A program made the position numbers and the translations under genes. The notes under the pieces were generated by a model. The model was not told the origin of the DNA and made no database searches. It saw only the letters and a list, made by a program, of their open reading frames with translations. 64,000 nt of DNA from contig CBDBCS010000006.1 in assembly GCA_965203415.1 (NCBI GenBank), positions 67,942-131,941 of the forward strand. The letters run 5' to 3'. Below, one piece after another: positions 12,084-58,712 of this stretch (position 1 is its first letter; every line of letters begins with the position of its first letter). The DNA comes from Alphaproteobacteria bacterium (GTDB lineage: Bacteria > Pseudomonadota > Alphaproteobacteria > CBDBCS01).

Positions 12084-13210
12084 TCCAGTTCCGCCGCGTT
12101 ATTCCGCGGCCCCAGGCTCACGCGGAGCATCCGGCGCGCGGCCGTGGCGTCATAGCCGCACGCTCGTAGCGTCGGAGAACCCCGAAGAGCCCCCGAAGCA
12201 CAGGCCGTCCCGCTAGAGACGGCGATGCCTGCCAGATCTAGCCGCACCAGAAGAGCCTGCACATCCGGAACGGCTCGAGCGTCCTGGAACAGCAGGCACG
12301 TACTATTGCTCAGACGCGGGACATGCTGGCCGATGACTTGAATGCCGGGCGGTAATTTTTTTTCCAGCTCGTCGCGGAGCTCCTGCGTTCCACGCCAGTC
12401 ATACGGGTTTTGAGTCGCAAGCCCCAGACTATGGATTGCCAGAACGTTTTCGGTACCGGGTCTGTAAGCGTTCTCCTGCCCGCCGCCGTAAAGCAGAGGC
12501 TTTATATGGAAGGCGCCTGTCCGCCAGACCAGGCCTCCGACGCCCGGCAGAGCCCCGATTTTATGGCCCGAGAAACTCAGTAAATCCCACGGGATATCGG
12601 CGAGGGGCTCATCCGCTTTGCCGCCGAAAGCCTGCGTCGCATCACAATGCAGCCAGACCGGAAAAGAGGCTTTGTCCAGCGTGGCCCGAATCTCGGAAAG
12701 CGGCTGGAGAACGCCTGTCTCGCTATTGGCAAGCTGGATCGAGACAAGACACGGCGTCGAATCCGAGGCCAGAAGAACCGCAAGCTCTGAAAGAAGCACG
12801 CGGCCATCTGAATCCGTAGGCACAGAAACACAGGCGAGACCTCGCGCCGCGCCATAGACTCGGGCGGCCTCCAGAACAGAGGGATGCTCTGTCGCGGCAA
12901 CCAGAAAACGCAAGCCGGCAGCACAGGCGGCGGAACCGCCGCTCGAGCCCGACGTCTCGAAGCCTGAGAATAGCAAGTTGTGCGCCTCGGTTGCGCTGCT
13001 TGTCCAGACGAGCTCATCTGCCTGCAGGTCCTGTTTGAGCCACGCTCGCACCTGTTCGAGACGCGCGCGCTGTTTCTGGCCCGGCCGGTGCACCGAAGAG
13101 CCATTCCCTAAAAAAGAGTCCGCCTCCAGCGTATGGAGCAATGCGACGACCTCCTCCGTCAGCGGAGCCGTCGCGTTCCAGTCAAAATACACAAGCGGAG
13201 AACTCAACAT
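12044..13210 (-). CDS. cysteine desulfurase (class V aminotransferase, NifS/IscS-like)
   Basis: ORF 12044..13315. Start moved to ATG at 13210 (MLSSPLVYFDWNATAP...), the start conserved in all repeat copies. PLP-Lys motif SFSGHKIGALPGVGGL and catalytic Cys loop SSGTACASG. Confidence 0.88.
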   Translation of the reverse strand: MLSSPLVYFDWNATAPLTEEVVALLHTLEADSFLGNGSSVHRPGQKQRARLEQVRAWLKQDLQADELVWTSSATEAHNLLFSGFETSGSSGGSAACAAGLRFLVAATEHPSVLEAARVYGAARGLACVSVPTDSDGRVLLSELAVLLASDSTPCLVSIQLANSETGVLQPLSEIRATLDKASFPVWLHCDATQAFGGKADEPLADIPWDLLSFSGHKIGALPGVGGLVWRTGAFHIKPLLYGGGQENAYRPGTENVLAIHSLGLATQNPYDWRGTQELRDELEKKLPPGIQVIGQHVPRLSNSTCLLFQDARAVPDVQALLVRLDLAGIAVSSGTACASGALRGSPTLRACGYDATAARRMLRVSLGPRNNAAELDYFLACLEASFAA

Positions 13211-13286
13211 CCGTCTTCCATGAAAACCCCGGATAACAAACTGGGGCGCATGCCGTGAGGACCCGCGCCTCGGGCAGTTTCTCGAG

Positions 13287-13315
13287 CAGTTAGGCCGGAG
13301 GAAACTCGGCGTCAA
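13287..13315 (-). promoter_or_regulatory. putative desulfurase promoter TTGACG-17-TAACTG (minus strand)
   Basis: Reverse complement agaTTGACGccgagtttcctccggccTAACTGctc. Sits back-to-back with the plus-strand promoter at 13344. Confidence 0.35.
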
Positions 13316-13597
13316 TCTAGCACGAATTTTTATTTTCCGCCTCTTGACGAGACGCCTTTAACGCGATAGGCTCCTTTTTGCGTGCCGCCTCTCCCGTCTC
13401 CCGTCGGGGCAGGAGGAAGGCGTCGGGAAAACATACCGGGAAAACATACCGGGAGAACACACCGGGCTAGGGCCAAAATAGGAGCCAGAGTCACAAGACC
13501 GTGGTGAAAGCATCGTGAAGCTGAAGAGCCGTGGGCCGTACACGCGTCTCGCTCCGGGGACGCGGTGCACCCGTTGAGACCGATCAGCCTGTGCACT

Positions 13598-13858
13598 CGA
13601 CGTCTCGAAGCCTGAAAAGAGCAAGTTGTGAGCCTCGGTTGCGCTGCTTGTCCAGACGAGCTCATCTGCCTGCAGGTCCTGTTTGAGCCACGCTCGCACC
13701 TGTTCGAGACGCGCGCGCTGTTTCTGGCCTGGCCGGTGCACCGAAGAGCCATTCCCTAAAAAAGAGTCCGCCTCCAGCGTATGGAGAAACGCGATGACCT
13801 CCTCCGTCAGCGGAGCCGTCGCATTCCAGTCAAAATACACAAGCGGAGGACTCAACAT
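13598..13858 (-). pseudogene. truncated 5' copy of the cysteine desulfurase gene (87 codons)
   Basis: Part of ORF 13358..13972: MLSPPLVYFDWNATAPLTEEVIAFLHTLEADSFLGNGSSVHRPGQKQRARLEQVRAWLKQDLQADELVWTSSATEAHNLLFSGFETS, then unrelated sequence. Confidence 0.85.
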
Positions 13859-14838
13859 CCGTCTTCCGTGAGAACCCGGAAAAACGCTGGCCTGGTTGAA
13901 AAAGCGCACATAAAGTCTTAAAGCTTGAGGGCTCGGGCGAACGGATGCGCCCTCACACGGAGAGACCCCCATGCATGCCGTGCTCGGGCGCGCCTTCCGT
14001 GAGGATTCCCACCCGGGTCGTCCCCGGGGCCTCTCGGGCCTCCCGGGCGGTCCGGAAAGAGCCCCGGCAGTCCGGCAGCCACGAGTCTATAGCTGGCATA
14101 CCCGTGTTCTCGATGGGTTCTTTTTTCGTGATGTAACCGCGACTGGGGGTCGGCGTACCGTACCAGATTGGGAGGCGAGACGGACAACTTCGTGCCGCCT
14201 CTTTCCCTACACCTGCTGTGCCGGCAGGGGGAGTATGGGGCTATAAAAGGCACGCTTGTAGAGCCTCCATGGGCTTTCCGGGTCATCATAGCGGTTCAAG
14301 GACACAAAAACAAGCGGTCGACCCAAGCTTCGAAAGCTGTACCCAAGCTTTTAAAGCCTTGCGAAAGTCGTGTTTGTACATATATAGATCGTCGCTCTTG
14401 GTAAACAGCGAAAAAAGACGGCACCCGTGGCGAAGCATGGCCTCATCAGCGGCCTCTTTTCGAGGGCCGCCACCACAGCCTCGGCCGTCGGCTGCCAGCG
14501 GGTCCAAAACTCGGCAACATTGGCGATCGACTGGAGCCTGGCAAGGGCTCCGAGCCTCTTGTTTTCTGCAGTCTGGGCAAAATATTGGAACACAGGGTAG
14601 GTTTCTTGCGCAAGCGTCGGCGGCAGCCGTTCTTCAGCACGCATCTTCTAGCCTCGTCGCCCAGCCCTTTTTCACGCGCCTTGGACGTTGTGAGAGAAAG
14701 CCTCGGCGTTCATGTTGAGCATGCTAGCACAAAACAAGACCGTGGTGAAAGCACCGTGAAGATGAAGAGCCGTGGGCCTTACACGCGTCTCGCTCCGGGG
14801 ACGCGGTGCACCCGTTGAGACCGGTCAGCCTGTGCACT

Positions 14839-15099
14839 CGACGTCTCGAAGCCTGAAAATAGTAAGTTGTGAGCCTCGGTTGCGCTGCTTGTCCAGACGA
14901 GCTCATCTGCCTGCAGGTCCTGTTTGAGCCACACTCGCACCTCTTCGAGACGCGCGCGCTGTTTCTGGCCCGGCCTGTGCACCGAAGAGCCATTCTCTAA
15001 AAAAGAGTCCGCCTCCAGTGTACGGAGCAACGCGACGACCTCCTCCGTCAGAGGAGCCGTCGCATTCCAGTCAAAATAAACAAGCGGAGCACTCAACAT
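14839..15099 (-). pseudogene. truncated 5' copy of the cysteine desulfurase gene (87 codons)
   Basis: ORF 14779..15099 starts MLSAPLVYFDWNATAPLTEEVVALLRTLEADSFLENGSS... and diverges after ...FSGFETS. Confidence 0.85.
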
Positions 15100-15460
15100 C
15101 CGTCTTCCGTGAAAACCCGGAGAATAAACTGGGGGCGCATGCCGCGAGGACCCGAGCCTCGGGCGGTTCTTCGGGAAGTTAGGCCGGAGGCGGCTCGGCG
15201 TCAGTTTAGCATGAATTTTTATTTTCTGCCTCTTGACGAGACACCTTTAACGCGATAGGCTCCCTTTTGCGTGCCGCCTCTCCCGTCTCCCGTCGGGGCA
15301 GGAGGAAGGCGTCGGGAGAACACACCGGGCTAGGGCCAAAATAGGAGCCAGAGTCACAAGACCGTGGTGAAAACATCGTGAAGCTCAAGAGCCGTGGGCC
15401 GTACACGCGTCTCGCTCCGGGAACGCGGTGCACCCGTTGAGACCGGTCAGCCTGTGCACT

Positions 15461-15721
15461 CGACGTCTCGAAGCATGAAAATAGTAAGTTGTGAGCCTCG
15501 GTTGCGCTGCTTGTCCAGACGAGCTCATCTGCCTGCAGGTCCTGTTTGAGCCACGCTCGCACCTGTTCGAGACGCGCGCGCTGTTTCTGGCCCGGCCTGT
15601 GCACCGAAGAGCCATTCTCTAAAAAAGAGTCCGCCTCCAGTGTACGGAGCAACGCGACGACCTCCTCCGTCAGAGGAGCCGTCGCATTCCAGTCAAAATA
15701 AACAAGCGGAGCACTCAACAT
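15461..15721 (-). pseudogene. truncated 5' copy of the cysteine desulfurase gene (87 codons)
   Basis: ORF 15206..15721, same N-terminal 87 residues, then read-through into repeat sequence. Confidence 0.85.
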
Positions 15722-15854
15722 CCATCTTCCATGAGAACCCCGGATAACAAACTGGGGCGCATGCCGCGAGGACCCGAGCCTCGGGCGGTTCTTCGGGAAG
15801 TTAGGCCGGAGGCGGCTCGGCGTCAGTTTAGCATGAATTTTTATTTTCTGCCTC

Positions 15855-15883
15855 TTGACAAGACGCTTCTAACACGATAGGCT
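15855..15883 (+). promoter_or_regulatory. putative acyl-CoA ligase promoter TTGACA-17-TAGGCT (gene-proximal copy)
   Basis: Copies with TTGACG occur at 13344-13372 and 15233-15261 in the upstream repeat units. Confidence 0.4.
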
Positions 15884-16029
15884 CCCTTTTGCGTGCCGCC
15901 TCTCCCGTCGGGGCGGGAGGCAGGCACCGGAAACACACCGGGGAAACACACTGGGGAAACACACCGGAAACACACACCGGGCTAGGGCCAAAACAGGAGC
16001 CAGCGTAACAAGACCGTGATAGAAGCACC

Positions 16030-17910
16030 GTGAAGCTCAAGAGCCGTGGGCCGTACACGCGTCTCGCTGTCGAGACGGCGGAGTCTCTGCCGGGCCTTTT
16101 TTTCACCCAGGCGACGCTTTTAGCGGATAGGCCTCTGTTTTACGCCTGGAAAGGGCCGGAGGCTTCGCGCGAGGCGGCCGCCTCGACCGCCTGGGTCTCG
16201 ACGAGCTGGCGGGACGCGGCGCGCAAAGTCCTGCATCTGGCGGCCCTGTTCCAGAGTCGCGGGCTTCAACCAGGTGCCCGAGTCTGTCTTTTAGCCGAAA
16301 ATTGCCCCGAATGGGGGATTGCTCATTTAGCCATTATGACGGCGGGCGGTTTATCGGTACCGCTCTATACGACGAACACGCCCGAGTCCCATCGGCATAT
16401 TATATCGGACAGCGGGGCTCGAGTTGCGGTTATCTCGGCGAGTCTGCTTGTTCCGTCTCTTCTTGAAACACTTGCGGGGCATCTGGATTGGATCCTGGTT
16501 CTGGGACCAGAGCAGGCCTCCGCCGCTAGCCGGCAAAAGAGCACCTCTCTGCCGCTTATTTTCCGCAATCTGGCGGAGGAAACCGACCCGCCCGAACCGC
16601 CGGCGGAACAGCGGCGCCATTTTATGAAAACCCTGTCGGATGTCAATAGAGACGATACGGCTGTTCTGATTTATACCTCTGGCACGTCGGGGGAGCCTCG
16701 GGGCGTCATGCTCAGCCACGAGAATATCTTATCCAATATGCGGTCGGCTTTGCCGATTTTACGGAGCCTCCGAGGCTTTGACATCGGCAGCGAGCGTTTT
16801 TTGTCTTTTTTGCCTCTCAGTCACGCCTATGAGCACATGGCGGGTTTTTTTCTACCGCTCGCCATCGGCGCGCGGGTCTGGTACTGTCCTGCCCTAGAGT
16901 ACCTGATAGAGCTCATTCCTCAGGTTCGTCCGACGATTATGACGGCCGTCCCGCGTCTTTATGAGATTTTATACGACCGCATCCACCGGAATCTGGCGAA
17001 GAGCTCGCCGCGTCAACGCCGTCTGTTCGAGGCAACCCGGGCGGTGGGGCATAAACGCCTTCATGGACAGAGCCTCTCTTTGGGAGACTTCTTGTTCGAC
17101 AAGAGCCTAGGCTCTGTCGTTCGGCGCAAGGTGGCACGGCGGTTTGGCGGAGAATTGCGAGGCTTTATCAGCGGTGGGGCGCCTCTTCACCCTGTTATCG
17201 GCGATTTTTTCCTGAGCATGGGGGTTTTGATACTCCAGGGCTATGGCCTGACCGAGACGTCGCCGGTTGTCTCGGTCAATCTTCCTCAGAACCCGTTGAG
17301 TGCGACCGTCGGGCCGCCTCTGGCGGGCACGGAGGTGAAAATCGCCTCGGACGGCGAAATTCTGGTCCGAGGCCCCTGCGTCATGAAAGGCTATTGGGGA
17401 CAGAGCGACGCGACCCAACGCGTCCTCTTGCCGGAGGGTTGGCTGGCGACGGGCGATTGCGGCGTTTTGACACCGGAGGGGCATCTCCAAATCATTGACC
17501 GCAAGAAGGATATTTTTGTCACGTCGGGAGGCGATACGATCGCGCCTCAAAAAATGGAGGGGCTGTTGAATCTGCAGCCCGAAATCGCCCAGGCTCTGGT
17601 TGTAGGCGATGGACGGGCGCATCTTGGGGCTCTTATTTATGGAGCCGACGATGACAATGACACCGGCGACACTGGCGACACCGGCAATGACACCGGTGCC
17701 AGCCCATCCGTCAAGGAAAAACGGGCGCGCATCGCCCGAGCCCTCGAGCGCGTCAATGCAGAGCTCGCCCCTGCAGAGCGTCTCCGGCGGTTCCACGTGC
17801 TGGAAGAGGCCTTTTCTATCGAGAACGGTCTTTTGACACCGTCTCTTAAACCCCGGCGCGCTCGTATTGTCGCGCGCTATCGCGCCGAGATCGAGGCTCT
17901 ATACACCTAA
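16030..17910 (+). CDS. long-chain fatty-acid--CoA ligase (AMP-dependent synthetase/ligase)
   Basis: AMP-binding motif LIYTSGTSGEPRGVMLSH, plus GYGLTETS and TGDCGVLTPEGHLQIIDRKKD. GTG start. In-frame DTGDTGDTGNDTG repeat insertion near the C-terminus. Confidence 0.88.
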   Translation: MKLKSRGPYTRLAVETAESLPGLFFTQATLLADRPLFYAWKGPEASREAAASTAWVSTSWRDAARKVLHLAALFQSRGLQPGARVCLLAENCPEWGIAHLAIMTAGGLSVPLYTTNTPESHRHIISDSGARVAVISASLLVPSLLETLAGHLDWILVLGPEQASAASRQKSTSLPLIFRNLAEETDPPEPPAEQRRHFMKTLSDVNRDDTAVLIYTSGTSGEPRGVMLSHENILSNMRSALPILRSLRGFDIGSERFLSFLPLSHAYEHMAGFFLPLAIGARVWYCPALEYLIELIPQVRPTIMTAVPRLYEILYDRIHRNLAKSSPRQRRLFEATRAVGHKRLHGQSLSLGDFLFDKSLGSVVRRKVARRFGGELRGFISGGAPLHPVIGDFFLSMGVLILQGYGLTETSPVVSVNLPQNPLSATVGPPLAGTEVKIASDGEILVRGPCVMKGYWGQSDATQRVLLPEGWLATGDCGVLTPEGHLQIIDRKKDIFVTSGGDTIAPQKMEGLLNLQPEIAQALVVGDGRAHLGALIYGADDDNDTGDTGDTGNDTGASPSVKEKRARIARALERVNAELAPAERLRRFHVLEEAFSIENGLLTPSLKPRRARIVARYRAEIEALYT

Positions 17911-17984
17911 CGGGAAACCTAACGGGCTCGAGAGACGGCGAATTGCGTGCCTCGCCCGGTGTTTTTTGTGTTTTTTCTGTATGT

Positions 17985-18085: not shown

Positions 18086-18088
18086 TAG

Positions 18089-18379
18089 ATGGAGAACGCC
18101 ATGACCTCAAAAAACGAGACGCCCAACAAAAAAACCCCCAAGACACCCAAGGAGAAACAAGACGCCTTAGAGGCCGAGGCTCGGAACACGCTCGCCCGCA
18201 TGGAACGCGAGAGCGACATGTTCGGCGGCCGGAACACTGGTTTTTTTCTTTTCAGAACACGCGAGGGTGTCTCGAAGCGCATGCGTCTCGCCATTGGGAT
18301 TGCCAGAGTTCTGGTGTTCGGAGGGGCTCTTCTTTATCTTATATCCCTTTTGGCGAGCGGCAGCGGCGGGGCGAGCTAG
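18089..18379 (+). CDS. hypothetical small protein with basic N-terminus and one C-terminal TM helix
   Basis: ORF 18089..18379 (...MRLAIGIARVLVFGGALLYLISLLASGSGGAS). No family recognised. Coding status uncertain. Confidence 0.3.
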   Translation: MENAMTSKNETPNKKTPKTPKEKQDALEAEARNTLARMERESDMFGGRNTGFFLFRTREGVSKRMRLAIGIARVLVFGGALLYLISLLASGSGGAS

Positions 18380-18680
18380 CCCAGAGCCGCAGCCGGAACC
18401 GGACTTTCCGACCGAACCCCGCCGGTCGGTGGGGCTGGACTGCCGGTGCCGGATCACCGGTGCCGGATCTCGAACCTTCGGGCGGGGCCTTTCCGGTTGG
18501 CGGGCGGGAGCAGCGGCGGGGCGAACTAGACCCGGGGGCCTTTCGACCGGGCCCGTCGGGCTGAACCGCCGACCGAACCGACCGGACCCCCCTGGCAGGT
18601 GCCGGATCACCGGTGCCGGACTGCCGGGGCCGGATCTGTAATCTCCGGGTTTACCCTTCGGGCCAGGCCTTTTTCCGGAT
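18355..18680. repeat. ~150-bp x2 diverged tandem duplication starting with the last codons + stop of ORF 18089..18379
   Basis: cagcggcggggcgagctag at 18361 and cagcggcggggcgaactag at 18511. Both units contain gccggtgccggatcaccggtgccgga. Confidence 0.7.
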
Positions 18681-22534: not shown

Positions 22535-22720
22535 GTGGTCTGCCCGGGTGGTCTGCCGCGGGGGTCGCCTGCCACGGGAGTCGCCTGCCACGGGGCTCGC
22601 CTGCCACGAGAGTCGCCTGCCGCGGGGGTCGCCTGCCACGAGAGTCGCCTGCCACGAGAGTCGCCTGCCACGAGAGTCGCCTACCACGGGGATTGCCTGC
22701 CACGGGGGTCGCCTGCCACG
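22535..22720. repeat. 16-nt tandem repeat (GTCGCCTGCCACGNGA)n, about 10 units
   Basis: cacgagagtcgcctgc reiterated. The ORF-track peptides show the expected 16-aa periodicity on both strands. Confidence 0.9.
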
Positions 22721-24625
22721 CCTCCGACGAGAACAGAAAAAACACCTCGGCCCTATCGGCCCACTCCTTAATCTGTACCGAGGTTGTGTCCTGGGTCCGT
22801 CCGGACCCGCCACTGCCGAGAACAGAAAAAAACAGCTTGGCCCCATCTATCGCCCATGCCTTAGTCTGTACCGAGCTTGTGTCCCGGGTCTGCCCTGAGT
22901 CCGTCCGGACCCGCCACTGCCGAGAACAGAAAAAAACAGCTTGGCCCCATCTATCGGCCATGCCTTAGTCTGCACCGAGGTTGTGTCCCGGGTCCGTCCT
23001 GACCCCCCTCCGACGGGAACAGAAAAAACAGCTTGGCCCTATCTATCGGCCCTTCCTGAATCTATACCGGGTCTGTGTCCTGGGTTTGGCCTGACCCGCC
23101 TCCGCCGCCGAGAGCAGGAAAAACAGCTTGGCCCCATCTATCGGCCATGCCTTAGTCTGCACCGAGGTTGTGTCCCGGGTCCGTCCTGACCCCCCTCCGA
23201 CGAGAACAGGAAAAACAGCTTGGCCCCATCTATCGGCCATGCCTTAGTCTGTCCCGGGGTTGTGTCCCGGGTCTGTCCTGAGTCCGTCCGGACCACCTCC
23301 GACGAGAACAGAAAAAACAGCTTGGCCCCATCTATCGGCCATGCCTTAATTGGCCCCATCTATCGGCCATGCCTTAATCTGTACCGAGGTTGTGTCCCGG
23401 GTCTGTCCTGAGTCCGTCCTGCCCCGCCTCCGACGAGAACAGGAAAAAACAGCTTGGCCCCATCTATCGGCCATGCCTTAATTGGCCCCATCTATCGGCC
23501 ATGCCTTAATCTGTACCGAGGTTGTGTCCCGGGTCTGTCCTGGGTCCGTCCTGCCCCACCTCCGACGAGAACAGAAAAAACCCCTCGGCCCCATCTATCA
23601 GCCATGCCTTAGTCTGTACCGAGGTTATGTGCCGGGTCTGTCCTGAGTCCGTCCTGCCCCGCCTCCGACGAGAACAGGAAAAACGCCTCGGCCCTATCGG
23701 CCATGCCTTAGTCTGTACCGAGGTTGTGTTCCGGGTCTGTCCTGAGTCCGTCCGGACCACCTCCGACGAGAACAGAAAAAACCCCTCGGCCCCATCTATC
23801 GGCCATGCCTTAGTCTGTCCCGGGGTTGTGTCCCGGGTCTGCCCTGAGTCCGTCCTGCCCCGCCTCCGACGAGAACAGAAAAAACGCCTCGGCCTTATCT
23901 ATCGGCCATGCCTTAGTCTGTACCGAGGTTGTGTCCCGGGTCTGTCCTGGGTCCGTCCTGCCCCACCTCCGACGAGAACAGAAAAAAACAGCTTGGCCCC
24001 ATCTATCAGCCATGCCTTAATCTGTACCGAGGTTGTGTCCCGGGTCCGTCCTGCCCCGCCGCCGACGAGAACAGAAAACAGCACCTCGGCCCCATCTATC
24101 GGCCATGCCTTAATCTGTCCTGGGTTTGTGTACCGGGTCTGTCTTATCCTGCCTCCTCCGACGAGAACAGAAACAGCACCTCGGCCCCATCTATCGGCCA
24201 TGCCTTAGTCTGTACCGAGGTTGTGTCCCGGGTCTGTCCTGGGTCCGTCCGGACCCGCCACTGCCGAGAACAGGAAAAACGCCTCGGCCCCATCTATCGG
24301 CCATGCCTTAATCTGTACCGAGGTTGTGTCCCGGGTCTGTCCTGAGTCCGTCCGGACCCGCCACTGCCGAGAACAGGAAAAACGCCTCGGCCCCATCTAT
24401 CGGCCATGCCTTAATCTGTACCGAGGTTGTGTCCCGGATCCGTCCTGAGTCCGTCCTGCCCCGCCTCCGACGAGAACAGAAACAGCACCTCGGCCCCATC
24501 TATCGGCCATGCCTTAGTCTGTCCCGGGGTTGTGTCCCGGGTCTGCCCTGAGTCCGTCCTGCCCCGCCTCCGACGAGAACAGGAAAAACGCCTCGGCCTT
24601 ATCTATCGGCGGCCTCTATCGGCGG
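22721..24625. repeat. array of about 19-20 units of a ~103-bp tandem repeat (93-133 bp); each unit is hairpin + U-tract on the minus strand
   Basis: Motif ggccccatctatcggccatgcc recurs at about 22839, 22941, 23034, 23129, 23221, 23323, 23456, 23588, 23690, 23789, 23890, 23995, 24088, 24183, 24287, 24390, 24493. ORF-track starts at 24221/24324/24427/24530 give an exact 103-bp period. Confidence 0.93.
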
Positions 24626-28900: not shown

Positions 28901-28934
28901 CTGCCCCCCTAGAATCCCAGACGATTCTGTGTTC

Positions 28935-38598: not shown

Positions 38599-38753
38599 AA
38601 GATCCTCCTTGAACTTGAAACAGAGACGGGCAGACGGCAAAACCAAACGGCAGGCCAGACAGCCCGGATCTCCTGAGTCTGACACATTATCAAAACGGTG
38701 TCAAGGCCTCGCGAGGTTTTATAAGACCGTTTCGGGCAAAAATCAAACAAAAA

Positions 38754-40800: not shown

Positions 40801-40928
40801 AAGGAGGCGGAAAGGCGGAAAAAACGATGCACATGGTTCTCGACCGGACGGGACCGGGACTCTTCAAAAAAAACAGACCTGCCTCCCGGAATGATTCCGG
40901 AAATGACCCCGGGAACACTCTCCTGCAC

Positions 40929-42512: not shown

Positions 42513-43922
42513 GTCGATTCGAACGGTCGGTTGCCCGACGCCGACGGGGACGCCTTGGCCGTTTTTGCCGCATGTCCCCATGCCGCCGTCAAGCGCAAAA
42601 TCCGTCCCAACCATAGAGACCTTGGTCATCACATCCGGGCCGTTCCCGATCAGAGTCGCACCTTTGACGGGGTGCGTGACTCGGCCGTTCTCGATTTGAT
42701 AGGCCTCTGTGCAGGTGAAAACGAAATTCCCGTTCGTGATATCCACCTGGCCGCCTCCGAAGGAGACGGCATAGAGCCCCTTGGAAACCGAGCCGATAAT
42801 CTCGCTAGGGTCGTGGGCGCCGGGCGTCATGAAGGTGTTCGTCATACGAGGCATGGGGGCGTGGCAAAAGGATTCTCGCCGGCCGTTCCCCGTAGGAGCC
42901 ATCTTCATCAGCCGCGCATTCTGGCGGTCCTGCATATAGGCCTTGAGGACCCCATCCTGGATGAGGACCGTCCTGCCGGTTGGGGTTCCCTCGTCGTCGA
43001 CGCTCAAAGAGCCGCGTCGGTGCTCCAGCGTCCCGTCATCCACGACGGTCACCGCCGAAGAGGCGACTTTTTCCCCAAGCTGCCCCGAGAAAAGAGACAG
43101 ACTCTTGCGATTAAAGTCCCCCTCCAGCCCGTGCCCCACGGCTTCATGGAGCAAAATCCCTGGCCACCCGGGGCCCAGCACGACGGGCATCTCGCCGGCG
43201 GGGGCCGGCCGGGCTTCGAGATTGACCTCGGCCTGGCGCAGAGCCTCCGAGGCGATGGTCTTCCAGTTTTCTTCCTCCAGGAAGCGATGATAGGGTTCTC
43301 GGCCGCCGCAGCTCATGCTGCCTTCCTCGCGTCGGCCGTCCTTGCTCGCAATGACCGAGACCGACAGACTCACGAGGGGACGGATGTCCGCTACCCGAAA
43401 CTGATCCGGACGGAGAATCTGGACCGCTCGCCACGAGCCCGCCAGCCGAATCGTCACCTGCTGGACACTGGAAGAGCGGCTCCGGACAAAAGCGTCTATC
43501 TTCGACAATAAGGCGATTTTATGCTCTTTCGACAAATCCATGAGCGGATCGTCGGGCCGATAGACGGCTCGGTTGGTCCGAGCGGGCATCGCCGCCGAGG
43601 TTTGCGTCCAGCCGTCGCCGACCGTTTTGACGGCCTGGCCGCTCTTCTGGAGAGCCTGAGGCGTCAGAGCCCCCGAATAGGCATACCCGGTCCGCTCGCC
43701 GAAAACGCCGCGGAGGCCGAAACCCTCGGTGAGCGTGTCGCCCGCATCTTGCAGCCGGCCTTCGGTCCAGGTGAAAAATTCGCTGCGACCGTATTCCAGA
43801 TAGAGCTCGCCATCGTCGGCGCGGTGCAAATGCGTCCCGAGGCTTTTGAAGATCTGACTTTCGTCCAGCTCGCCGTGGCGGAAGAAAATAGCGTCAGTTT
43901 GGTGAATGAGTTCCGTTTGCAT
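42486..43922 (-). CDS. tldD: metalloprotease TldD
   Basis: 478 aa. HEAVGHGLEGDFNRK zinc motif. C-terminal ...QPTVRIDAITVGGTS. Confidence 0.93.
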   Translation of the reverse strand: MQTELIHQTDAIFFRHGELDESQIFKSLGTHLHRADDGELYLEYGRSEFFTWTEGRLQDAGDTLTEGFGLRGVFGERTGYAYSGALTPQALQKSGQAVKTVGDGWTQTSAAMPARTNRAVYRPDDPLMDLSKEHKIALLSKIDAFVRSRSSSVQQVTIRLAGSWRAVQILRPDQFRVADIRPLVSLSVSVIASKDGRREEGSMSCGGREPYHRFLEEENWKTIASEALRQAEVNLEARPAPAGEMPVVLGPGWPGILLHEAVGHGLEGDFNRKSLSLFSGQLGEKVASSAVTVVDDGTLEHRRGSLSVDDEGTPTGRTVLIQDGVLKAYMQDRQNARLMKMAPTGNGRRESFCHAPMPRMTNTFMTPGAHDPSEIIGSVSKGLYAVSFGGGQVDITNGNFVFTCTEAYQIENGRVTHPVKGATLIGNGPDVMTKVSMVGTDFALDGGMGTCGKNGQGVPVGVGQPTVRIDAITVGGTS

Positions 43923-47198: not shown

Positions 47199-47454
47199 TC
47201 CTCAAGAAAGCACGTAAAAACGCACACAGACAGCCCACATGCAGGTCTCCGGGCAGACAAGTCTCGTCGGTCGGCCGACAGCACGGAAAAGCACAGAAAG
47301 CAAACAGAAAGCAAAAACAACGCCAAAACGACATTTCCGTAGCGTATCTGTTGAGAACATGGACCTTGACGATGCCCCTGTAAAAAGCTACCGTGCGAGG
47401 GCGGGGGGATACTTTTGCAGGCTACTCCCAAAAAGAGAGGACAATACGAAAACC

Positions 47455-47883
47455 ATGGAACAGCGATTGAGCGTGATCACCTTGGGCGTGACGGACCTGA
47501 AGCAGTCCAGAGCCTTCTATGAAAAACTGGGCTGGAAAGTGGCTACAGAGGAACAAGCCGACTCTATCGTCGCCTTTAATTTACAGAGTTTTGTCCTGGC
47601 TCTTTACCCGTTCAAGGGATTTTCAGAAGAGCTCGGCTTATCGGTCACCAGGACCTGGCCTCCCAGCTTCACCCTAGCCTATAATGTGGACTCCGAGGAA
47701 AGAGTCAACCAGGTCCTCCAAGAGGCAGAACAGATTGGAGCTTCCATCCTCAAGCGGCCTCAGAAGGTGTTTTGGGGCGGCTATTCCGGCTATTTTGCGG
47801 ATCCGGACGGCTATTCGTGGGAGGTGGCCTTTAATCCTTTCGCGAAACTCGGCGAGGACGGAACATTCCGATGGACGCCGTAA
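47455..47883 (+). CDS. VOC / glyoxalase-bleomycin-resistance family protein, copy 1
   Basis: MEQRLSVITLGVTDLKQSRAFYEKLGW...FADPDGYSWEVAFNP, typical VOC fold motifs. ATG at 47455. Confidence 0.8.
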   Translation: MEQRLSVITLGVTDLKQSRAFYEKLGWKVATEEQADSIVAFNLQSFVLALYPFKGFSEELGLSVTRTWPPSFTLAYNVDSEERVNQVLQEAEQIGASILKRPQKVFWGGYSGYFADPDGYSWEVAFNPFAKLGEDGTFRWTP

Positions 47884-47933
47884 CAGCCGTTGCGAGCAGA
47901 ATACGCCCCAAAAGAGAGGAAAATACGAAAAGC

Positions 47934-48359
47934 ATGGAACAGCGATTGAGCGTGATCACCTTAGGGGTGACGGACCTGAAACGGTCCAGAGCCTTCTACG
48001 AAAAACTGGGGTGGAAAGTGGCCACAGAGGAACAAGCCGACTCTATTGTCGCCTTTAATTTGCATGGGTTTGTGCTGGCTCTTTATCCGCTCGAGGGCTT
48101 TGCGGAAGAGGTCGGGCAGCCGGTCAGCCGAGTCTCCCCCAGCCTCCTGCTAGCCTATAGCGTTGCCTCCGAGGCAAAAGTCGACCAGCTCCTCCAAGAG
48201 GCGGAACAGATTGGAGCCACCATCGTCAAGCGGCCTCAGAAGATGTTTTGGGGCGGCTATTCGGGCTGTTTTTCCGACCCGGACGGCTATTTGTGGGAGG
48301 TGGACTTTAATCCCTTCGCGAAACTCGGCGAGGACGGAACGTTCCGATGGATGTCGTAA
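47934..48359 (+). CDS. VOC / glyoxalase family protein, copy 2 (tandem paralog)
   Basis: MEQRLSVITLGVTDLKRSRAFYEKLGW...FSDPDGYLWEVDFNP. The upstream 20 nt is also duplicated. Confidence 0.8.
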   Translation: MEQRLSVITLGVTDLKRSRAFYEKLGWKVATEEQADSIVAFNLHGFVLALYPLEGFAEEVGQPVSRVSPSLLLAYSVASEAKVDQLLQEAEQIGATIVKRPQKMFWGGYSGCFSDPDGYLWEVDFNPFAKLGEDGTFRWMS

Positions 48360-48362
48360 CGA

Positions 48363-52711: not shown

Positions 52712-52725
52712 ACGGCGGTGCTGGT

Positions 52726-55700: not shown

Positions 55701-58113
55701 AGCCGCGGAGCACATCCTGAACAACGATGCGTTCACGCTCGTGGCCGAGGCGCGTTTCGCCTATGGCAATGACGTCGTCCTGAATAGTGTCACGCTCACC
55801 AGCAGCGAGCACAATGCCCGGACCGAGATCTACAACAACTCTTTTGTCGACAGCGACGATAATGACTTTCTGGGCGGCTTTGGGTTCGACATCCATAGAG
55901 GCGGCGACAGCCCCACGAAGCTTCAGGGGCAATCCATTGCTCGAGTCGGCGACTATAATGACGATGGATTCGACGATTTTGTCTTCGTCAACCGAGCCGG
56001 CAAGATCTCCGTCGTTCGAGGCGGGCGCGAGTCCTGGTCCGTCCGAGAACTCCCCAACAGCCCGACGTATGAAACCTTGCCGAGCTACACCAATATAGCG
56101 GGAGGCGACTTCAACGGCGACGGCTTTGGCGATGTGCTCGCCTCGCAGAATGCTAATTTCAATCAGCTTGTCGTCCGGCCCGGCCGAGCCGACGGAACAA
56201 GCGGCCCTGATGATTACGAGCTCAACACGCACAATAATAGCGGGTCTGCCGCCGTCGCCGTGATCGGAGACATCAATGGCGACGGGATTGTAGACACGGC
56301 CATCTCGTATCGCAATTGGGACACGGTAGCCTTCGCCTATAGCAATCCAGCCCGCGGCGGGAGAACGGATATCTATGAGAAAGGCACGACGGGGAATCGT
56401 CAAATCAATGATTTCGGCATACGCGAGTATCCGAATGAGCACGGCGAGGATGGGATCGAAACCGTCAGGGCACCTTCTAACGCTTTTTACACCTTCCTGG
56501 GACTCGCCGGGGCGGAGGGCGTGCCAACCGTGTATTTCGGAGATTTACCCGAATCGAATGCGTATGCCAAAGACGCGGGGTCTGTCTTTTACCACGCCTC
56601 CATCAGCAAGAGCGGCGCGTCTGTCAGTGGCATCGGCGACATCAATGGCGATGGCATAGACGATTTCGCAATCGGCACGCCTGGGCGCGACGCCAATAGC
56701 TCTGCGAGTGCTCGAGACGCGGGCGCCGTGTTCGTGATTTACGGCATGAACTCGAACAAGCACGGGATTGATGATGCCGGCCGGACGTGGCAACGAGATG
56801 ACTCCGACTCGATTGAGCCCGTCATCGCCTCCAGTTATAACGAGAACGATCTCCGCGAGGCGACCCAGGGTTTCTTGATTCACTCGGGTTCGGGGCGGCG
56901 CGAAGAGCACTTTGGTGCGGTCGTAGATGCCGCCGGGGACTTCAACGGCGACGGCTATCAGGATATCGTGATCGGCAATGACGATGCGAATAACGCTGCC
57001 AAGCGAGTCGTGGTTTTCTTCGGGCGGTCTGGTCATACGGGACGCTCTTATGACGCCGCCGACCAGCTAGAGATCGTCTCGACCAGCCAGGGCTTTGGCA
57101 AATCCGTCAGCGGTATCGGCGATTTCAACGGCGACGGCTTTGACGATATCCTCGTCGGCGACACCACCAGCGGCGGCGGCGGCGGAGCCTATATCTTCTT
57201 CGGTCAGGACGAAACCCGAGCCAATCTGGAAGGAGCTCTATGGGATCTCGGTGCGACGGGAGACGATAGCATTACGAATGATCCGACTCGGATGCTCAAA
57301 TTGTCTACGGGCATTTCCGGAACGGACGACACCGCGGCGATGGCTGCCAACGTTCACCACTTCGGGAACACGGTCGAGGGGATTGGCGACTTCAATGGCG
57401 ACGGCTTGGACGATTTATCCTATGGCGATGGTCGGGGCAATGTCCGCGTTATCTGGGGGAACAAGCACTTTGGCCAGCCGGCTAATTCGGACCAGAGCGG
57501 CGACCCTTATAACTCTGCGGACGCCATTGACCATATTTCCGACCCCATTGGGCGCGGCGATGTCGTCTATGCGGGCGCGGGCGGTGACACGCTTTACCTC
57601 AACTCGAACCGAGCCCAGCGTATAGATGGAGGCTCGGGCGTTGACACGCTCGTCATCGGGCGGGGCGTCGAGCTGGATCTGACGCAGGCCACCGACTCTG
57701 GTTCGCTGGGACGCGACGATGTCCGCGACATCGAGAAACTCAAGTTCTATGCCAACTCTGGGAGTGTGGTGAAGCTGGACAAGTTCTCGCTGTACGATTT
57801 GACGGCGACTTCGTCTCATGTCGATATCGATGTTGCTGCCGGCGAGACCATCACCGGACGTTTCCTGACTGTAGAACGGGAGGGTAATATCACCCACGAC
57901 AGAACGGCGATGGGTTCCGAAGAGCTCCAGCTTTTGGACTCTCATTTCTACAAAGAAGAGAAAGACAATGGCGACGTGTACTACATCCGGACGGCCTTGG
58001 GCCTAGGGAGCTCCAATGGCTACAACGAGTTTGTCGGCATATGGGCACCCGACGCCGAGGACGCTGCGGGTGAAGACAATAGCGTGTTCGTTCAAGAGGT
58101 CGCCTATTTGTAG
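52726..58113 (+). CDS. giant adhesin 1, C-terminal segment (reading frame is open upstream to at least 52441)
   Basis: Ig-like modules ending FYVDTAPP / FTVDTQAP. Seven GD(F/Y/I)NGDG(F/I/Y/L)xD FG-GAP repeats (about 55900-57450). RTX-like GAGGDTLYLNSNRAQRIDGGSGVDTLVIG (about 57540-57660). Confidence 0.85.
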   Translation: MNLGTNDSGETSLVVVWYGTGYAAMLSDTFVLGALDTAGNIYAHQVVVHRGLNARITDHTQEGGTIVYTLDYSGSSAIPATSFTSSIGTVTGVALTADAAGTTMVTGGGMVFVTVTVSEEHEGEFAYLRSIGGTSPFHFPEYRHYYDNVGPKYENLEVEIAGVPEGRVVTVSDVAEFVVVTLDFTDGPLGGTYVSHEDFVVVSGASRFALDGAAPVSGDFNALQLLEARALGDHNTWAVTVAARGGDGVRSQVFFSPYDEANPHFEDTSGNPSDGNFGDKLIAEFYVDTAPPIVMNEIPNQIIVTADDTETDAVEVVVRRGQLAFDPIALAGHFSNIPGSNPAMLQPDLIDTFEASATGDPLLDQLRFRKVGDAETLYFEADLASDVIYGIATVTITATDGAGHTVTDAFLVTREEDPTADPTPIEFLSAAKQALPLRIGQDEGYVVLAFSKGLSDYSESGMDSDLVDASDFDVTAMGDAMGDMVALSVESYGVGSERVSLKLVADEGTDHTVYTLAFASDAAFTGENEVAAMLPTDGTVIEFTVDTQAPVAATTGTGALADQTMAGSTDLSNAFTDGGMLTYRVTDENEGPYDASISGTNLVLTARTEVSTASNPPAVMGIEQITVTAFDEVGNATRTTISAQNSSGALTGTIGDVFLTDPERGTGTYFASHEVTLSETFTGGTNYTFFVGESDGMGSVTAMQSYSGAVREQADVVRASVSGNTLRLDAIAGAGIGVEAVTVTAVDSTGKVGTAEFFVHLPGVELKEELTPFEVVEGAMATYTLEDGTTKAFWGAYDAYVKTGDTAPDSLSLRFYAVGSEPPVDASGPPAFADTGGSVNTRAPDLTPADTELDLTAPQVFGDTVYTIRIEATTSGGTNTAGMGYSSMSRDEVQVLVTDSGTVDIAEAATLTTTVYDVDDAGTMGAREATLDLATLFDFATGDQGGITPTPQHFSIDYYIEAAGEQVSETTRVSIPDDGMVEVHLRGALDNVAAEHILNNDAFTLVAEARFAYGNDVVLNSVTLTSSEHNARTEIYNNSFVDSDDNDFLGGFGFDIHRGGDSPTKLQGQSIARVGDYNDDGFDDFVFVNRAGKISVVRGGRESWSVRELPNSPTYETLPSYTNIAGGDFNGDGFGDVLASQNANFNQLVVRPGRADGTSGPDDYELNTHNNSGSAAVAVIGDINGDGIVDTAISYRNWDTVAFAYSNPARGGRTDIYEKGTTGNRQINDFGIREYPNEHGEDGIETVRAPSNAFYTFLGLAGAEGVPTVYFGDLPESNAYAKDAGSVFYHASISKSGASVSGIGDINGDGIDDFAIGTPGRDANSSASARDAGAVFVIYGMNSNKHGIDDAGRTWQRDDSDSIEPVIASSYNENDLREATQGFLIHSGSGRREEHFGAVVDAAGDFNGDGYQDIVIGNDDANNAAKRVVVFFGRSGHTGRSYDAADQLEIVSTSQGFGKSVSGIGDFNGDGFDDILVGDTTSGGGGGAYIFFGQDETRANLEGALWDLGATGDDSITNDPTRMLKLSTGISGTDDTAAMAANVHHFGNTVEGIGDFNGDGLDDLSYGDGRGNVRVIWGNKHFGQPANSDQSGDPYNSADAIDHISDPIGRGDVVYAGAGGDTLYLNSNRAQRIDGGSGVDTLVIGRGVELDLTQATDSGSLGRDDVRDIEKLKFYANSGSVVKLDKFSLYDLTATSSHVDIDVAAGETITGRFLTVEREGNITHDRTAMGSEELQLLDSHFYKEEKDNGDVYYIRTALGLGSSNGYNEFVGIWAPDAEDAAGEDNSVFVQEVAYL

Positions 58114-58712
58114 ACGCCTGTCCCCGTCCATCTGAGCCGCCTCTATGCGTGGCGGCTGTGCCTCGGCGGCGTGAGGCGGCGGCGGTGAGTCGCACCTTGG
58201 TCGCTGGGGACGCCTCGAGACGCCCTCCTGCGGTGCGCCCTGTGCCTGCGCCTTGGCCGGGCCTCGCCTTAACCAGAGCTGCTGTTTAGGCTGTTTGCAT
58301 AGAGCGGCGTTCTTCTCAGGAGGGCTGCTCCTCCGGCCGGGCCGGGGAGGCTAGCGGCCGCCCGTCGAGAGCTTGACTCTTTCCGACCTTTTCCGACTTG
58401 AGAGGAACGAGGACAATGGCGTAGTCGTTCAGGAAGGCGCCTATTTGTGGACGAGTGCCTGCCTGTGCTGCCTCTATGCGTGGCGGCTGTGCCTCGGCGG
58501 CGGGACGGCGGCGGCGGTGAGTCGCACCTAGGTCGCTGGGACGTGCCCTGCGGTGCGCCCTGGCCTCGCCTTAACCCGAGCTGCTGTTTAGGCTGTTTGA
58601 ATAGAGCGGCGTTCTTCTCAGGAGGGCTGCTCCCCCGGCCGGGCCGGGGAGGCTAGAGGCCGCCCGTCGAGGACTTGACTCTTTCCGACCTTTTCCGACT
58701 TGAGGGGAACAC
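58075..58712. repeat. ~337-bp x2 tandem duplication starting with the last ~13 codons + stop of giant adhesin 1
   Basis: gacaatagcgtgttcgttcaagaggtcgcctatttgtag (58075) versus gacaatggcgtagtcgttcaggaaggcgcctatttgtgg (58412). Both units end ctttccgaccttttccgacttgag(a/g)ggaac. Confidence 0.88.

What the first reader, a model, noticed from the sequence alone, without database searches (positions are those of the whole stretch)
12950..58712. Window-wide pattern: multi-copy tandem arrays pinned to the start- or stop-codon region of intact genes
Seven independent loci share one geometry: an imperfect head-to-tail array whose terminal unit is the genuine gene end. Three are 5'-anchored. (a) Cysteine desulfurase plus acyl-CoA ligase, 12950-16068, 4 copies. 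(b) GlcD-like oxidase, 40073-40800, 182 bp x4. (c) tauC, 33575-33935, 180 bp x2, in frame. Three are 3'-anchored. (d) tldD, 40929-42512, ~325 bp x5, each unit opening with ITVGGTS + stop. (e) Giant adhesin 1, 58075-58712, ~337 bp x2. (f) Small ORF 18089..18379, 18355-18680, ~150 bp x2. One covers a whole gene: the VOC pair, ~47430-48359. Copies differ by substitutions and indels, so they are not a trivial assembler stutter. With the non-genic arrays (22535-24625, 27845-28900), roughly a sixth of the window is tandem repeat, interleaved with essential genes (gyrA, alaS, hisS, prfA, dapB). I know of no named element or mechanism that yields 4-5-copy arrays registered on ORF termini. The null explanation is a very high duplication rate combined with selection that only tolerates duplications leaving one intact gene copy.
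Basis: partly seen in the sequence, partly recalled or inferred. Interest (0 to 1): 0.8.

Follow-up and report, generated by a model that had tools for sequence, protein, structure and literature searches.

The report
Gene-end tandem arrays explained by survivorship
This stretch of an unclassified alphaproteobacterial genome really is packed with long tandem duplications next to intact genes, but their position at gene ends follows automatically from how tandem duplication works, so the only unusual thing is how many there are and how long they have lasted.

Summary
Self-BLAST and TRF confirm every listed array; (f) is weak and (a) is interrupted by an 848-bp insert. Recognisable tandem repeats cover 17.4% of the window, and 12.5% of the window is surplus copies.

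The arrays look real rather than assembler stutter. Copy differences are mostly substitutions with a natural GC>AT-biased spectrum. Variants are shared between units in hierarchical or mosaic patterns. All internal junctions of array (a) carry the same 44-nt filler.

The "registration on ORF termini" needs no special mechanism. A tandem duplication of [a,b] destroys a gene only if it lies strictly inside that gene, so an intact copy always sits at the end of the array. On a collapsed single-copy map, the survivorship null predicts 6.7 of 9 arrays touching a gene end (observed 7). It predicts 6.6 of 18 breakpoints inside genes (observed 7). All 11 intragenic short repeats have periods divisible by three, against 3 of 18 intergenic ones.

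The load remains unusual. Arrays with period ≥100 bp are about 50 times denser than in 2.19 Mb of comparison loci, and copies persist to 3-22% divergence. The cause (more duplication, or less deletion) could not be tested because no close relative is available.

The parts
12950..16068 (.). Array (a). It has four ~622-648-bp units spanning the 5' ends of two divergent genes: U1 12950-13597, U2 13598-13885 plus 14734-14838, U3 14839-15460, U4 15461-16068. The intact csd gene (12044-13210, minus) uses the leftmost unit. The intact acyl-CoA ligase (16030-17910, plus) uses the rightmost.
   Evidence: Self-blastn offsets of 622, 648, 1241, 1889 and 2511 at 89-95% identity. Unit alignment. Pfam Aminotran_5 and AMP-binding. 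An 87-codon csd fragment in every unit.
13886..14733 (.). Unique 848-bp insert that replaces about 255 bp in the middle of unit U2 of array (a). Its origin is unknown.
   Evidence: No similarity elsewhere in the window. No Pfam hit for its ORFs.
13554..13597 (+). 44-nt filler at the unit junction of array (a). It recurs at 14795-14838 and 15417-15460 and is absent from the true gene flanks. It marks a single founding illegitimate join that all later copies inherited.
   Evidence: 3 matches with at most 1 mismatch, 0 expected, and none elsewhere in the window.
18355..18680 (+). Array (f). A decayed duplication of about 155 bp x2 that starts at the 3' end of a small unannotated ORF (18089-18379).
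   Evidence: Local alignment of 75 nt at 76% identity, score 50 against a shuffle maximum of 30. A 14-mer motif at both copies. The ORF has no Pfam hit, so the gene itself is unverified.
22546..24610 (.). Non-genic satellite-like array between convergent genes (oxidoreductase ending at 22269; prfA stop at 24662). It is a 16-mer x10.5 (22553-22720) followed by 18+ units of 89-132 bp (mode 103), with mosaic variants and a nested 28-mer duplication.
   Evidence: TRF. Unit dissection. The period is not divisible by 3.
27866..28903 (.). Non-genic array of 377-389 bp x2.7 in the divergent hisS / aminotransferase intergenic region. Its units contain nested 9-, 10- and 11-mer repeats.
   Evidence: No excess RNA structure on either strand.
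33578..33937 (+). Array (c). 180 bp x2 at 78% identity, covering 41 nt upstream plus the first 46 codons of the tauC-like permease. The copies are in frame, so the ORF from 33619 carries a duplicated N-terminus and the second ATG is at 33799.
   Evidence: Pfam BPD_transp_1.
40073..40800 (-). Array (b). 182 bp x4, each unit being 94 nt upstream plus the first 88 nt of glcD (38754-40160, minus). The intact gene uses the unit at 40073-40254.
   Evidence: no indels and differences about 9:1 transitions. Variant partitions {1,4|2,3} (3 sites, left part) and {1,2|3,4} (5 sites, right part) are incompatible, which implies exchange between units or out-of-phase duplications. Pfam FAD_binding_4 and FAD-oxidase_C.
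40927..42513 (-). Array (d). Five units of 292-327 bp, each being the last 27 nt of tldD (42486-43922, minus) plus about 300 nt downstream. The intact gene uses the unit at 42193-42513.
   Evidence: pairwise identity 96-98%. The four distal units share a 6-nt and a 3-nt indel that the proximal unit lacks. No Rfam hit. Fold z-score -0.55.
47417..48360 (+). Whole-gene tandem pair of VOC/glyoxalase-family genes, 479 bp x2 at 85% identity. Both are intact (47455-47883 and 47934-48359).
58072..58710 (+). Array (e). ~337 bp x2, covering the last ~42 nt of the 1795-aa FG-GAP protein (52726-58113) plus about 295 nt downstream. The stop codon is mutated in copy 2.

Best explanation
These are ordinary, locus-specific tandem duplications that have accumulated at an extraordinary density in this lineage. 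They are not a dedicated element.

Step 1 (inferred, with partial support): a one-off illegitimate join duplicates a 100-650-bp segment.

Step 2 (shown for arrays a, b and d): once two copies exist, homologous misalignment adds further copies. This could be unequal exchange, slippage or out-of-phase re-duplication. All copies inherit the founding junction.

Step 3 (shown): the copies then decay by ordinary point mutation.

Step 4 (shown): selection removes only duplications that lie strictly inside a gene or break its frame. Every survivor therefore contains a gene end, a whole gene or no gene, and an intact gene necessarily sits at the terminal unit.

Step 5 (inferred, untested): the high load reflects either an unusually high duplication rate or unusually weak deletion and purifying selection in this organism.
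For: Geometry follows from the null. The collapsed-map simulation expects 6.7 of 9 arrays on a gene end against 7 observed. It expects 6.6 of 18 breakpoints in genes against 7 observed.

A selection filter is visible. 11 of 11 intragenic repeat loci have periods divisible by 3, against 3 of 18 intergenic loci (Fisher p=1e-5).

Each array has its own unit. There is no cross-array similarity, so this is not a dispersed element.

There was a single founding event followed by homologous expansion. The same 44-nt filler sits at all three internal junctions of (a). The four distal units of (d) share indels. Array (b) has incompatible variant partitions.

Decay looks neutral. The polarised spectrum is 54 GC>AT transitions, 31 AT>GC transitions and 60 transversions. 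Terminal branches of the csd fragments carry about 2 synonymous and 5.5 non-synonymous changes, while the functional copy carries about 4 and 0.5 (derived).

Ages differ from array to array, with 2-22% divergence. That fits a continuing process.

Repeats are nested at all scales from 9 to 650 bp.

There is no sign of function in the units. There is no Rfam family, no excess folding and no excess promoter- or terminator-like sites in arrays b and d.

The founding mechanism is established elsewhere. Microhomology-mediated tandem duplication followed by expansion is reported across bacteria (bioRxiv 10.64898/2026.02.28.708716). Multi-copy (2-8x) tandem duplications with short direct repeats at the breakpoints arise spontaneously in E. 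coli (PMC6614815).
Against: The window holds only nine long-period arrays, so the null tests have little power to exclude a modest preference for gene ends.

Microhomology at the founding junctions could not be demonstrated. Boundaries have decayed, and (a) has a filler instead.

Pairwise dN/dS between csd fragments is low (0.13-0.29). I attribute this to internal branches that belonged to the functional lineage and to transition and GC3 bias, but the counts are too small to prove it.

Persistence of 96-98%-identical 325-bp direct repeats is unexpected given the deletion bias of bacteria (stated in PMC6614815), and it is not explained.

Much of the background used for density comes from short-read MAGs, which may under-represent long arrays. 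Restricting to contigs >=500 kb still gives 0.43 arrays per 100 kb against 9.4.
Confidence: 0.72

Rival explanations
1. Gene boundaries are genuine hotspots. A process tied to transcription-unit ends preferentially starts duplications there, so the registration is mechanistic rather than a survivorship effect. Candidates are transcription-replication collisions, R-loops, and polymerase template switching at terminator or promoter structures.
For: All four intergenic gaps longer than 2 kb are built from arrays. The three 3'-anchored arrays begin only 25-45 nt inside the gene. The null test has low power at n=9.
Against: The observed counts match the null on both metrics, so no enrichment needs explaining. 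Intragenic breakpoints range from 25 to 261 nt from the terminus. Two large arrays touch no gene end. No common motif or structure occurs at the junctions. There is no excess of terminator-like hairpins in arrays b and d.
Confidence: 0.08
2. The arrays are adaptive regulatory amplifications. Reiterated promoters or 5' leaders would raise or tune expression of glcD, tauC, csd and the ligase. Reiterated 3' regions would act as terminators, RNA-stability elements or non-coding RNAs, as has been proposed for intergenic repeats of Borg elements.
For: The units of (a), (b) and (c) contain the whole upstream region, so promoters are reiterated. A CTTGAC...N17...ATAGGC motif is kept in U1, U3 and U4 (visible in the alignment). 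Tandem duplication can capture promoters (PMC6614815). Intergenic repeats are proposed to act as regulatory RNAs in Borgs (PMC9879509).
Against: 5'-anchored, 3'-anchored and gene-free arrays occur in the proportions the neutral null predicts. Units show neutral-looking decay, including a lost stop in (e), a 36-bp deletion in one unit of (d) and an 848-bp insertion in U2. There is no Rfam hit, no structural z-score signal and no sigma-70-like sites. The genes concerned are functionally unrelated.
Confidence: 0.1
3. Assembly artefact. The arrays are stutter or mis-joined reads from a long-read or metagenomic assembly, and the real genome has single copies.
For: No reads or independent assembly could be examined. 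The exact proteins and DNA are absent from every collection searched.
Against: Array (b) has no indels in 4 x 182 bp, and its variants are shared between units in two incompatible partitions. The spectrum is a natural GC>AT-biased one, not indel-dominated. The units of (a) share a 44-nt filler and differ in the copy number of nested repeats. Divergence ranges from 2% to 22% between arrays. Intragenic repeats obey the reading frame. Random read errors or haplotype collapse would produce none of these features.
Confidence: 0.05
4. Remnants of selected gene-dosage amplifications. Larger segments were once amplified under selection and then trimmed, leaving partial units.
For: The VOC pair is a whole-gene duplication with both copies intact. 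Amplification under selection is common in bacteria (established knowledge).
Against: Units of arrays a-f never contain a complete gene. All copies in an array share the same two breakpoints, which independent trimming would not produce. The non-genic arrays cannot provide any dosage.
Confidence: 0.05

Closest known systems
Microhomology-mediated or illegitimate tandem duplication followed by expansion into multi-copy repeats (the Haber-Louis model; bioRxiv 10.64898/2026.02.28.708716; E. coli examples in PMC6614815)
   Same: Copies are head-to-tail and locus-specific. A single founding junction is inherited by all units. Arrays then expand to 3-18 copies. Survivors are non-disruptive or in frame.
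   Different: Microhomology arms could not be shown here because the boundaries have decayed, and one array has a 44-nt filler. Units are long (100-650 bp). Copies are old (up to 22% divergence). Density is about 50-fold above comparison genomes.
Pervasive tandem repeats of Borg extrachromosomal elements (PMC9879509)
   Same: Both show a genome-specific, very high load of independent locus-specific tandem repeats. [quoted passage not shown] All repeats inside ORFs are divisible by three, while most intergenic ones are not.
   Different: Borg repeats are short, perfectly identical, recently formed and A-rich, and they sit on an archaeal extrachromosomal element. Here the conspicuous arrays have long, diverged units and lie among essential bacterial genes.
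MIRUs of mycobacteria (as summarised in PMC12548453)
   Same: Both are tandem units positioned at gene boundaries, so arrays 'registered' on start or stop codons are not without precedent.
   Different: MIRUs are one dispersed family of 40-100-bp units, apparently mobile, carrying an ORF coupled to the downstream gene with -4 nt spacing. Here every array has its own sequence, derived from the local gene end.
Tandem arrays containing gene-end fragments next to the control region of animal mitochondrial genomes (the tandem-duplication-random-loss literature, e.g. PMC4430869, listed but not read here; otherwise from my own knowledge)
   Same: Both involve slippage-type duplications that span gene ends, leave one intact gene and leave decaying partial copies.
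   Different: These are organelle genomes. Their arrays usually sit at one hotspot near the replication origin, not at nine loci in 64 kb.
Staphylococcus aureus lpl tandem paralog cluster, where the evolutionary unit runs from the 3' part of one ORF to the 5' part of the next (PMC2568036)
   Same: The repeat unit is out of phase with ORF boundaries, and units exchange by homologous recombination.
   Different: That cluster consists of complete functional paralogs. Here the extra units are mostly non-functional fragments.

Membership tests
Locus-specific tandem duplication array (illegitimate founding event plus homologous expansion) | Head-to-tail direct copies of a segment of the local sequence | tested here: met
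   TRF and self-blastn. Unit alignments.
Locus-specific tandem duplication array (illegitimate founding event plus homologous expansion) | All copies share one novel junction, indicating a single founding event | tested here: met
   Junction sequences are identical within each array. The 44-nt filler occurs at all three internal junctions of (a).
Locus-specific tandem duplication array (illegitimate founding event plus homologous expansion) | Microhomology arms or a flanking partial repeat at the array ends | tested here: inconclusive
   Only ambiguous 4-5-nt similarities were found: GAGGC at (b) and ATCG/CGAT at (d). Array (a) has filler DNA instead.
Locus-specific tandem duplication array (illegitimate founding event plus homologous expansion) | Evidence of exchange or re-duplication between units | tested here: met
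   Incompatible variant partitions in (b). U3 and U4 differ by 1.1% in the csd part but 15% in the intergenic part. The distal units of (d) form a clade.
Locus-specific tandem duplication array (illegitimate founding event plus homologous expansion) | Copy number varies between strains | not testable with these tools
   No same-species or close-relative sequence exists in the genome, metagenome or plasmid collections.
MIRU-like dispersed intergenic repeat | The same unit sequence at many loci | tested here: not met
   No similarity between arrays in the self-blastn.
MIRU-like dispersed intergenic repeat | 40-100-bp unit carrying an ORF that overlaps the flanking gene's start or stop | tested here: not met
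   Units are 103-648 bp and are copies of the local gene end plus intergenic DNA.
Borg-type pervasive tandem repeats | Very high genome-specific density of independent repeat loci | tested here: met
   48 loci per 100 kb against 8-10 in comparison DNA. Period >=100: 9.4 against 0.18 per 100 kb.
Borg-type pervasive tandem repeats | Repeats inside ORFs have unit lengths divisible by three | tested here: met
   11 of 11 intragenic against 3 of 18 intergenic.
Borg-type pervasive tandem repeats | Units are perfect (no SNPs) and short | tested here: not met
   Units are 103-648 bp and 2-22% diverged.
Selected gene amplification | The unit contains at least one complete gene, and copies are near-identical | tested here: not met
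   Only the VOC pair holds a whole gene, and it is 15% diverged. The other units hold 27-261 nt of a gene.
CRISPR array | Short conserved repeats separated by unique spacers | tested here: not met
   Units are contiguous with no unique spacers. No Rfam CRISPR family was hit.

The most novel reading that the evidence does not exclude
The lineage has a heritable change in DNA replication or repair that makes long tandem duplications arise far more often or be deleted far more rarely than in other bacteria. Candidates are loss or alteration of Okazaki-fragment processing, of the single-strand exonucleases that suppress repeat rearrangements, of mismatch repair, or of RecA-dependent deletion. Under this reading about half of the non-coding DNA is born by duplication of adjacent sequence. 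That would be a bacterial-chromosome counterpart of the Borg repeat phenomenon, but with long and long-lived units. A stronger version is that gene ends are true mechanistic hotspots. It is not excluded at n=9, but nothing requires it.
Probability: 0.3. Interest if true: 0.65.

Novelty: new member of a known kind. Interest (0 to 1): 0.4.

Why it matters
The finding removes an apparent mystery. Arrays ending on genuine gene ends are what any tandem duplication must look like after selection, so no new element needs to be proposed.

What remains is a bacterial chromosome segment in which 12.5% of the DNA is surplus long-unit tandem copies of many ages, interleaved with essential genes. If this holds genome-wide, the organism is a natural record of tandem-duplication birth, expansion and decay. 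It would also be a counter-example to the usual bacterial deletion bias. That makes it useful for asking how non-coding DNA and protein insertions originate, and which repair functions normally keep such duplications rare.

Tried and rejected
1. Identifying the organism or a sister strain. Exact-protein look-ups found nothing. The genome scan with TldD gave a best hit of 62% identity. The AlaS homologue search gave a best hit of 54%, with all hits alphaproteobacterial. An exact 30-mer from array (d) had no match in metagenomes. The GlcD scan of metagenomes gave a best hit of 42%. Megablast of 25 kb against plasmids gave no match. Copy number therefore could not be compared between strains.

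2. Structured RNA in the units. There was no Rfam hit apart from tRNA-Ser, and fold z-scores were -0.3 to -0.55. Rejected.

3. Reiterated sigma-70 promoters or intrinsic terminators. There were 0 promoter-like sites, and in arrays b and d terminator-like sites were fewer than in shuffles. In the 22.2-29.6 kb region terminator-like sites were more numerous than in shuffles (17 against a mean of 8.1), but most lie outside the arrays. These scans are uninformative for alphaproteobacterial promoters.

4. Purifying selection on the csd fragments. Pairwise dN/dS is 0.13-0.29. After assigning changes to branches, the purely non-functional terminal branches look neutral. Not pursued as evidence of function.

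5. Microhomology at the founding junctions. Inconclusive.

6. Origin of the 44-nt filler and of the 848-bp insert. No source in the window and no Pfam hit.

7. Literature search for a named phenomenon of gene-terminus arrays in bacteria. Only general mechanisms, Borg repeats, MIRUs and the S. aureus lpl case were found.
Full report
OBSERVATION

- (a) 12950-16068 has four units of about 622-648 bp at 89-95% identity. Unit U2 is interrupted: its head (13598-13885) and tail (14734-14838) flank a unique 848-bp insert.
- (b) 40073-40800 is exactly 4 x 182 bp.
- (c) 33578-33937 is 2 x 180 bp at 78% identity and in frame.
- (d) 40927-42513 has five units of 292-327 bp at 96-98% identity. Each begins with the last codons of tldD (…ITVGGTS) and a stop.
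- (e) 58072-58710 is 2 x ~337 bp.
- (f) 18355-18680 is only a decayed duplication of about 155 bp. It is significant but weak.
- The VOC pair (47417-48360) is a whole-gene duplication at 85% identity with both copies intact.
- The two non-genic arrays are a 16-mer x10.5 plus 18 or more units of ~103 bp at 22546-24610, and 377-389 bp x2.7 at 27866-28903.

Recognisable tandem repeats cover 17.4% of the window and 52% of its non-coding DNA. All four intergenic gaps longer than 2 kb consist largely of arrays. Collapsing each array to one unit removes 8,010 bp, or 12.5% of the window.

Gene identities were checked with Pfam. They include gyrA, alaS, hisS, prfA, dapB, tldD, a GlcD-like FAD oxidase, a class-V aminotransferase (cysteine desulfurase-like), an AMP-binding ligase, a tauABC-like transporter, two VOC genes and a 1795-aa FG-GAP protein.

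IS IT MORE THAN CHANCE, AND IS IT REAL?

These total 2.19 Mb: the 80 TldD loci are mostly alphaproteobacterial, and the 80 GlcD metagenome loci are of unknown taxonomy. It found four arrays of period ≥100 bp, none with more than 3.6 copies. That is 0.18 per 100 kb and about 0.06% of bases. The window has 9.4 per 100 kb and 9.35% of bases. Restricting the background to contigs ≥500 kb, to limit short-read collapse, still gives only 0.43 per 100 kb.

Several features argue against assembler stutter.
- Array (b) has no indels at all, and its 12 variable sites are mostly transitions.
- Those variants are shared between units in two incompatible partitions: {1,4|2,3} for three sites on the left and {1,2|3,4} for five sites on the right.
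- The four distal units of (d) share two indels that the gene-proximal unit lacks.
- All three internal junctions of (a) carry the same 44-nt filler, which occurs nowhere else.
- The polarised mutation spectrum over four arrays is 54 GC>AT transitions, 31 AT>GC transitions and 60 transversions. That is a normal biological spectrum.
- Nested short repeats differ in copy number between units.

WHY THE ARRAYS SIT ON GENE ENDS

Consider a tandem duplication of a segment [a,b]. The sequence up to b is preserved in the first copy, and the sequence from a onward is preserved in the second. A gene is therefore disrupted only if the segment lies strictly inside it. This follows directly from the geometry.

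Three consequences follow. If one breakpoint is in a gene and the other outside, an intact gene necessarily remains at the terminal unit, and truncated 5' or 3' fragments fill the rest. If the breakpoints lie in two divergent genes, as in array (a), both genes stay intact at opposite ends.

I tested the quantitative version on the collapsed map, which is 82% coding. Segments of the nine observed unit lengths were placed at every position, and those strictly internal to a gene were discarded. The survivors are expected to touch a gene end in 6.7 of 9 cases; 7 are observed (P(≥7)=0.58). The expected number of breakpoints inside genes is 6.6 of 18; 7 are observed. Intragenic breakpoints lie 25-261 nt from the terminus, so nothing is pinned to the start or stop codon.

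The same filter shows at small scale. All 11 short repeat loci inside genes have periods divisible by three, against 3 of 18 in intergenic DNA (Fisher p=1e-5).

HOW THE ARRAYS AROSE

Each array has its own unit derived from local sequence, and there is no similarity between arrays. This is not a dispersed or mobile family.

Within an array all units share the same junction. In (a) that junction includes 44 nt of filler DNA. This indicates one founding illegitimate join, with later copies made by homology. The mosaic in (b), the distal clade in (d), and the contrast between U3 and U4 of (a) all show repeated exchange or out-of-phase re-duplication between units. U3 and U4 differ by 1.1% in the csd part but 15% in the intergenic part.

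Clear microhomology at the founding junctions could not be shown. Only ambiguous 4-5-nt similarities remain.

Divergence ranges from 2-5% in (b) and (d), to 5-16% in (a), to 15-22% in the VOC pair, (c), (e) and the 103-bp array. The process has therefore been going on for a long time.

The csd fragments give pairwise dN/dS of 0.13-0.29. When the changes are assigned to branches, the functional copy carries about 4 synonymous and 0.5 non-synonymous changes. The terminal branches of the non-functional units carry about 2 synonymous and 5.5 non-synonymous changes. The extra copies thus appear to decay neutrally, although the counts are small.

No evidence of function was found in the units. There is no Rfam family, no excess RNA folding and no excess promoter- or terminator-like sites in arrays b and d. 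In the 22.2-29.6 kb region terminator-like sites do exceed shuffles, but most lie outside the arrays. The promoter scan is not tuned to alphaproteobacteria.

WHAT REMAINS UNEXPLAINED

The unexplained part is the load and the persistence. Bacteria normally delete such DNA; the deletion bias is summarised in PMC6614815. Direct repeats of 325 bp at 97% identity should be unstable.

Either duplications arise unusually often here, or they are removed unusually slowly. Slow removal could reflect weak selection, reduced recombination, or stabilisation once the copies have diverged. I could not test this.

The organism has no close relative in any collection available. The best TldD hit is 62% identical, the best AlaS hit 54% and the best GlcD hit in metagenomes 42%. 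There was no exact protein or DNA match and no plasmid match.

COMPARISON WITH KNOWN SYSTEMS

- The mechanism fits the general model of illegitimate or microhomology-mediated tandem duplication followed by expansion (bioRxiv 10.64898/2026.02.28.708716). Spontaneous 2-8-copy examples with short direct repeats at the breakpoints are known in E. coli (PMC6614815).
- The nearest genome-level parallel is the pervasive tandem repeats of Borg elements (PMC9879509). Those are independent loci, about half intergenic or starting in a gene end, and always divisible by three inside ORFs. They differ in being short, perfect and recent.
- MIRUs show that arrays at start codons have precedent (PMC12548453). 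They are one dispersed family with a coupled ORF, and neither feature is met here.
- CRISPR and selected gene amplification were considered and fail their defining features (see the membership table).

VERDICT

The 'registration on ORF termini' is the expected footprint of random tandem duplication filtered by selection.

I file the arrays as further examples of a known kind. The remaining interest lies in the roughly 50-fold excess of long, long-lived tandem duplications in this unplaced alphaproteobacterial lineage. Confirming and explaining that excess needs the whole genome, its repair-gene inventory and sister strains.

Noticed in passing
window 1-1125 (minus strand) and 1427-1511: An ORF running off the left edge encodes a RepC N-terminal replication-protein domain (Pfam E=8e-26). 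It is only 32-42% identical to plasmid RepC proteins. It lies on the 3' side of tRNA-Ser(GCT), which suggests an integrated plasmid-like element. Alternatively, and less likely, it marks a RepC-type origin close to gyrA. Cumulative GC skew rises monotonically across the window.
   Followed up: partly
window 13886-14733: A unique 848-bp segment replaces about 255 bp in the middle of unit U2 of array (a). Its ORFs have no Pfam match and it has no similarity elsewhere in the window. The origin is unknown; it could be an insertion or a templated patch.
   Followed up: partly
window 13554-13597, 14795-14838, 15417-15460: A 44-nt filler sequence sits at every internal junction of array (a). It matches neither flank and nothing else in the window. 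It is a signature of a non-homologous or template-switch founding event.
   Followed up: yes
window 5141-5171, 5670-5707, 7326-7373, 8939-8982, 30184-30223, 44403-44431, 47105-47150, 51556-51703, 59412-59710: Housekeeping and other genes carry in-frame short tandem repeats. Examples are the gyrA acidic tail, dapB at 328 aa with a split DapB_C match, DUF484, a solute-binding protein, and the hypothetical 474-aa protein. These produce low-complexity insertions, which parallels the amino-acid tandem repeats described in Borgs.
   Followed up: partly
window 51287-58113 versus 59298-64000: The hypothetical 474-aa gene plus the FG-GAP giant gene are followed by a second giant ORF that runs off the window. 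Region 51473-51830 resembles 59550-59880 at 69% identity, which suggests an older, larger paralogous duplication of the cluster.
   Followed up: no
window 17978-18084 and 22553-22720: Two dense short-period arrays lie in intergenic DNA: a 14-mer TGTATGTGTATAAG x7.4 upstream of the small ORF, and a 16-mer CTGCCACGGGAGTCGC x10.5 abutting the 103-bp satellite. They look superficially like iterons or binding-site arrays. This was not tested.
   Followed up: no
window 37835-38753: A 919-bp gap between alaS and glcD holds only overlapping ORFs on both strands (219 aa and 172 aa) with no Pfam match and no tandem repeat. It may be a lineage-specific gene or decayed DNA.
   Followed up: partly
window 40255-40800 (minus strand): Each extra unit of array (b) keeps the glcD start codon and 29 codons. 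The frame then runs on for about 20 more codons into the next unit's upstream sequence before a stop. If the reiterated start regions are active, they would produce three short fusion ORFs of about 50 codons.
   Followed up: no
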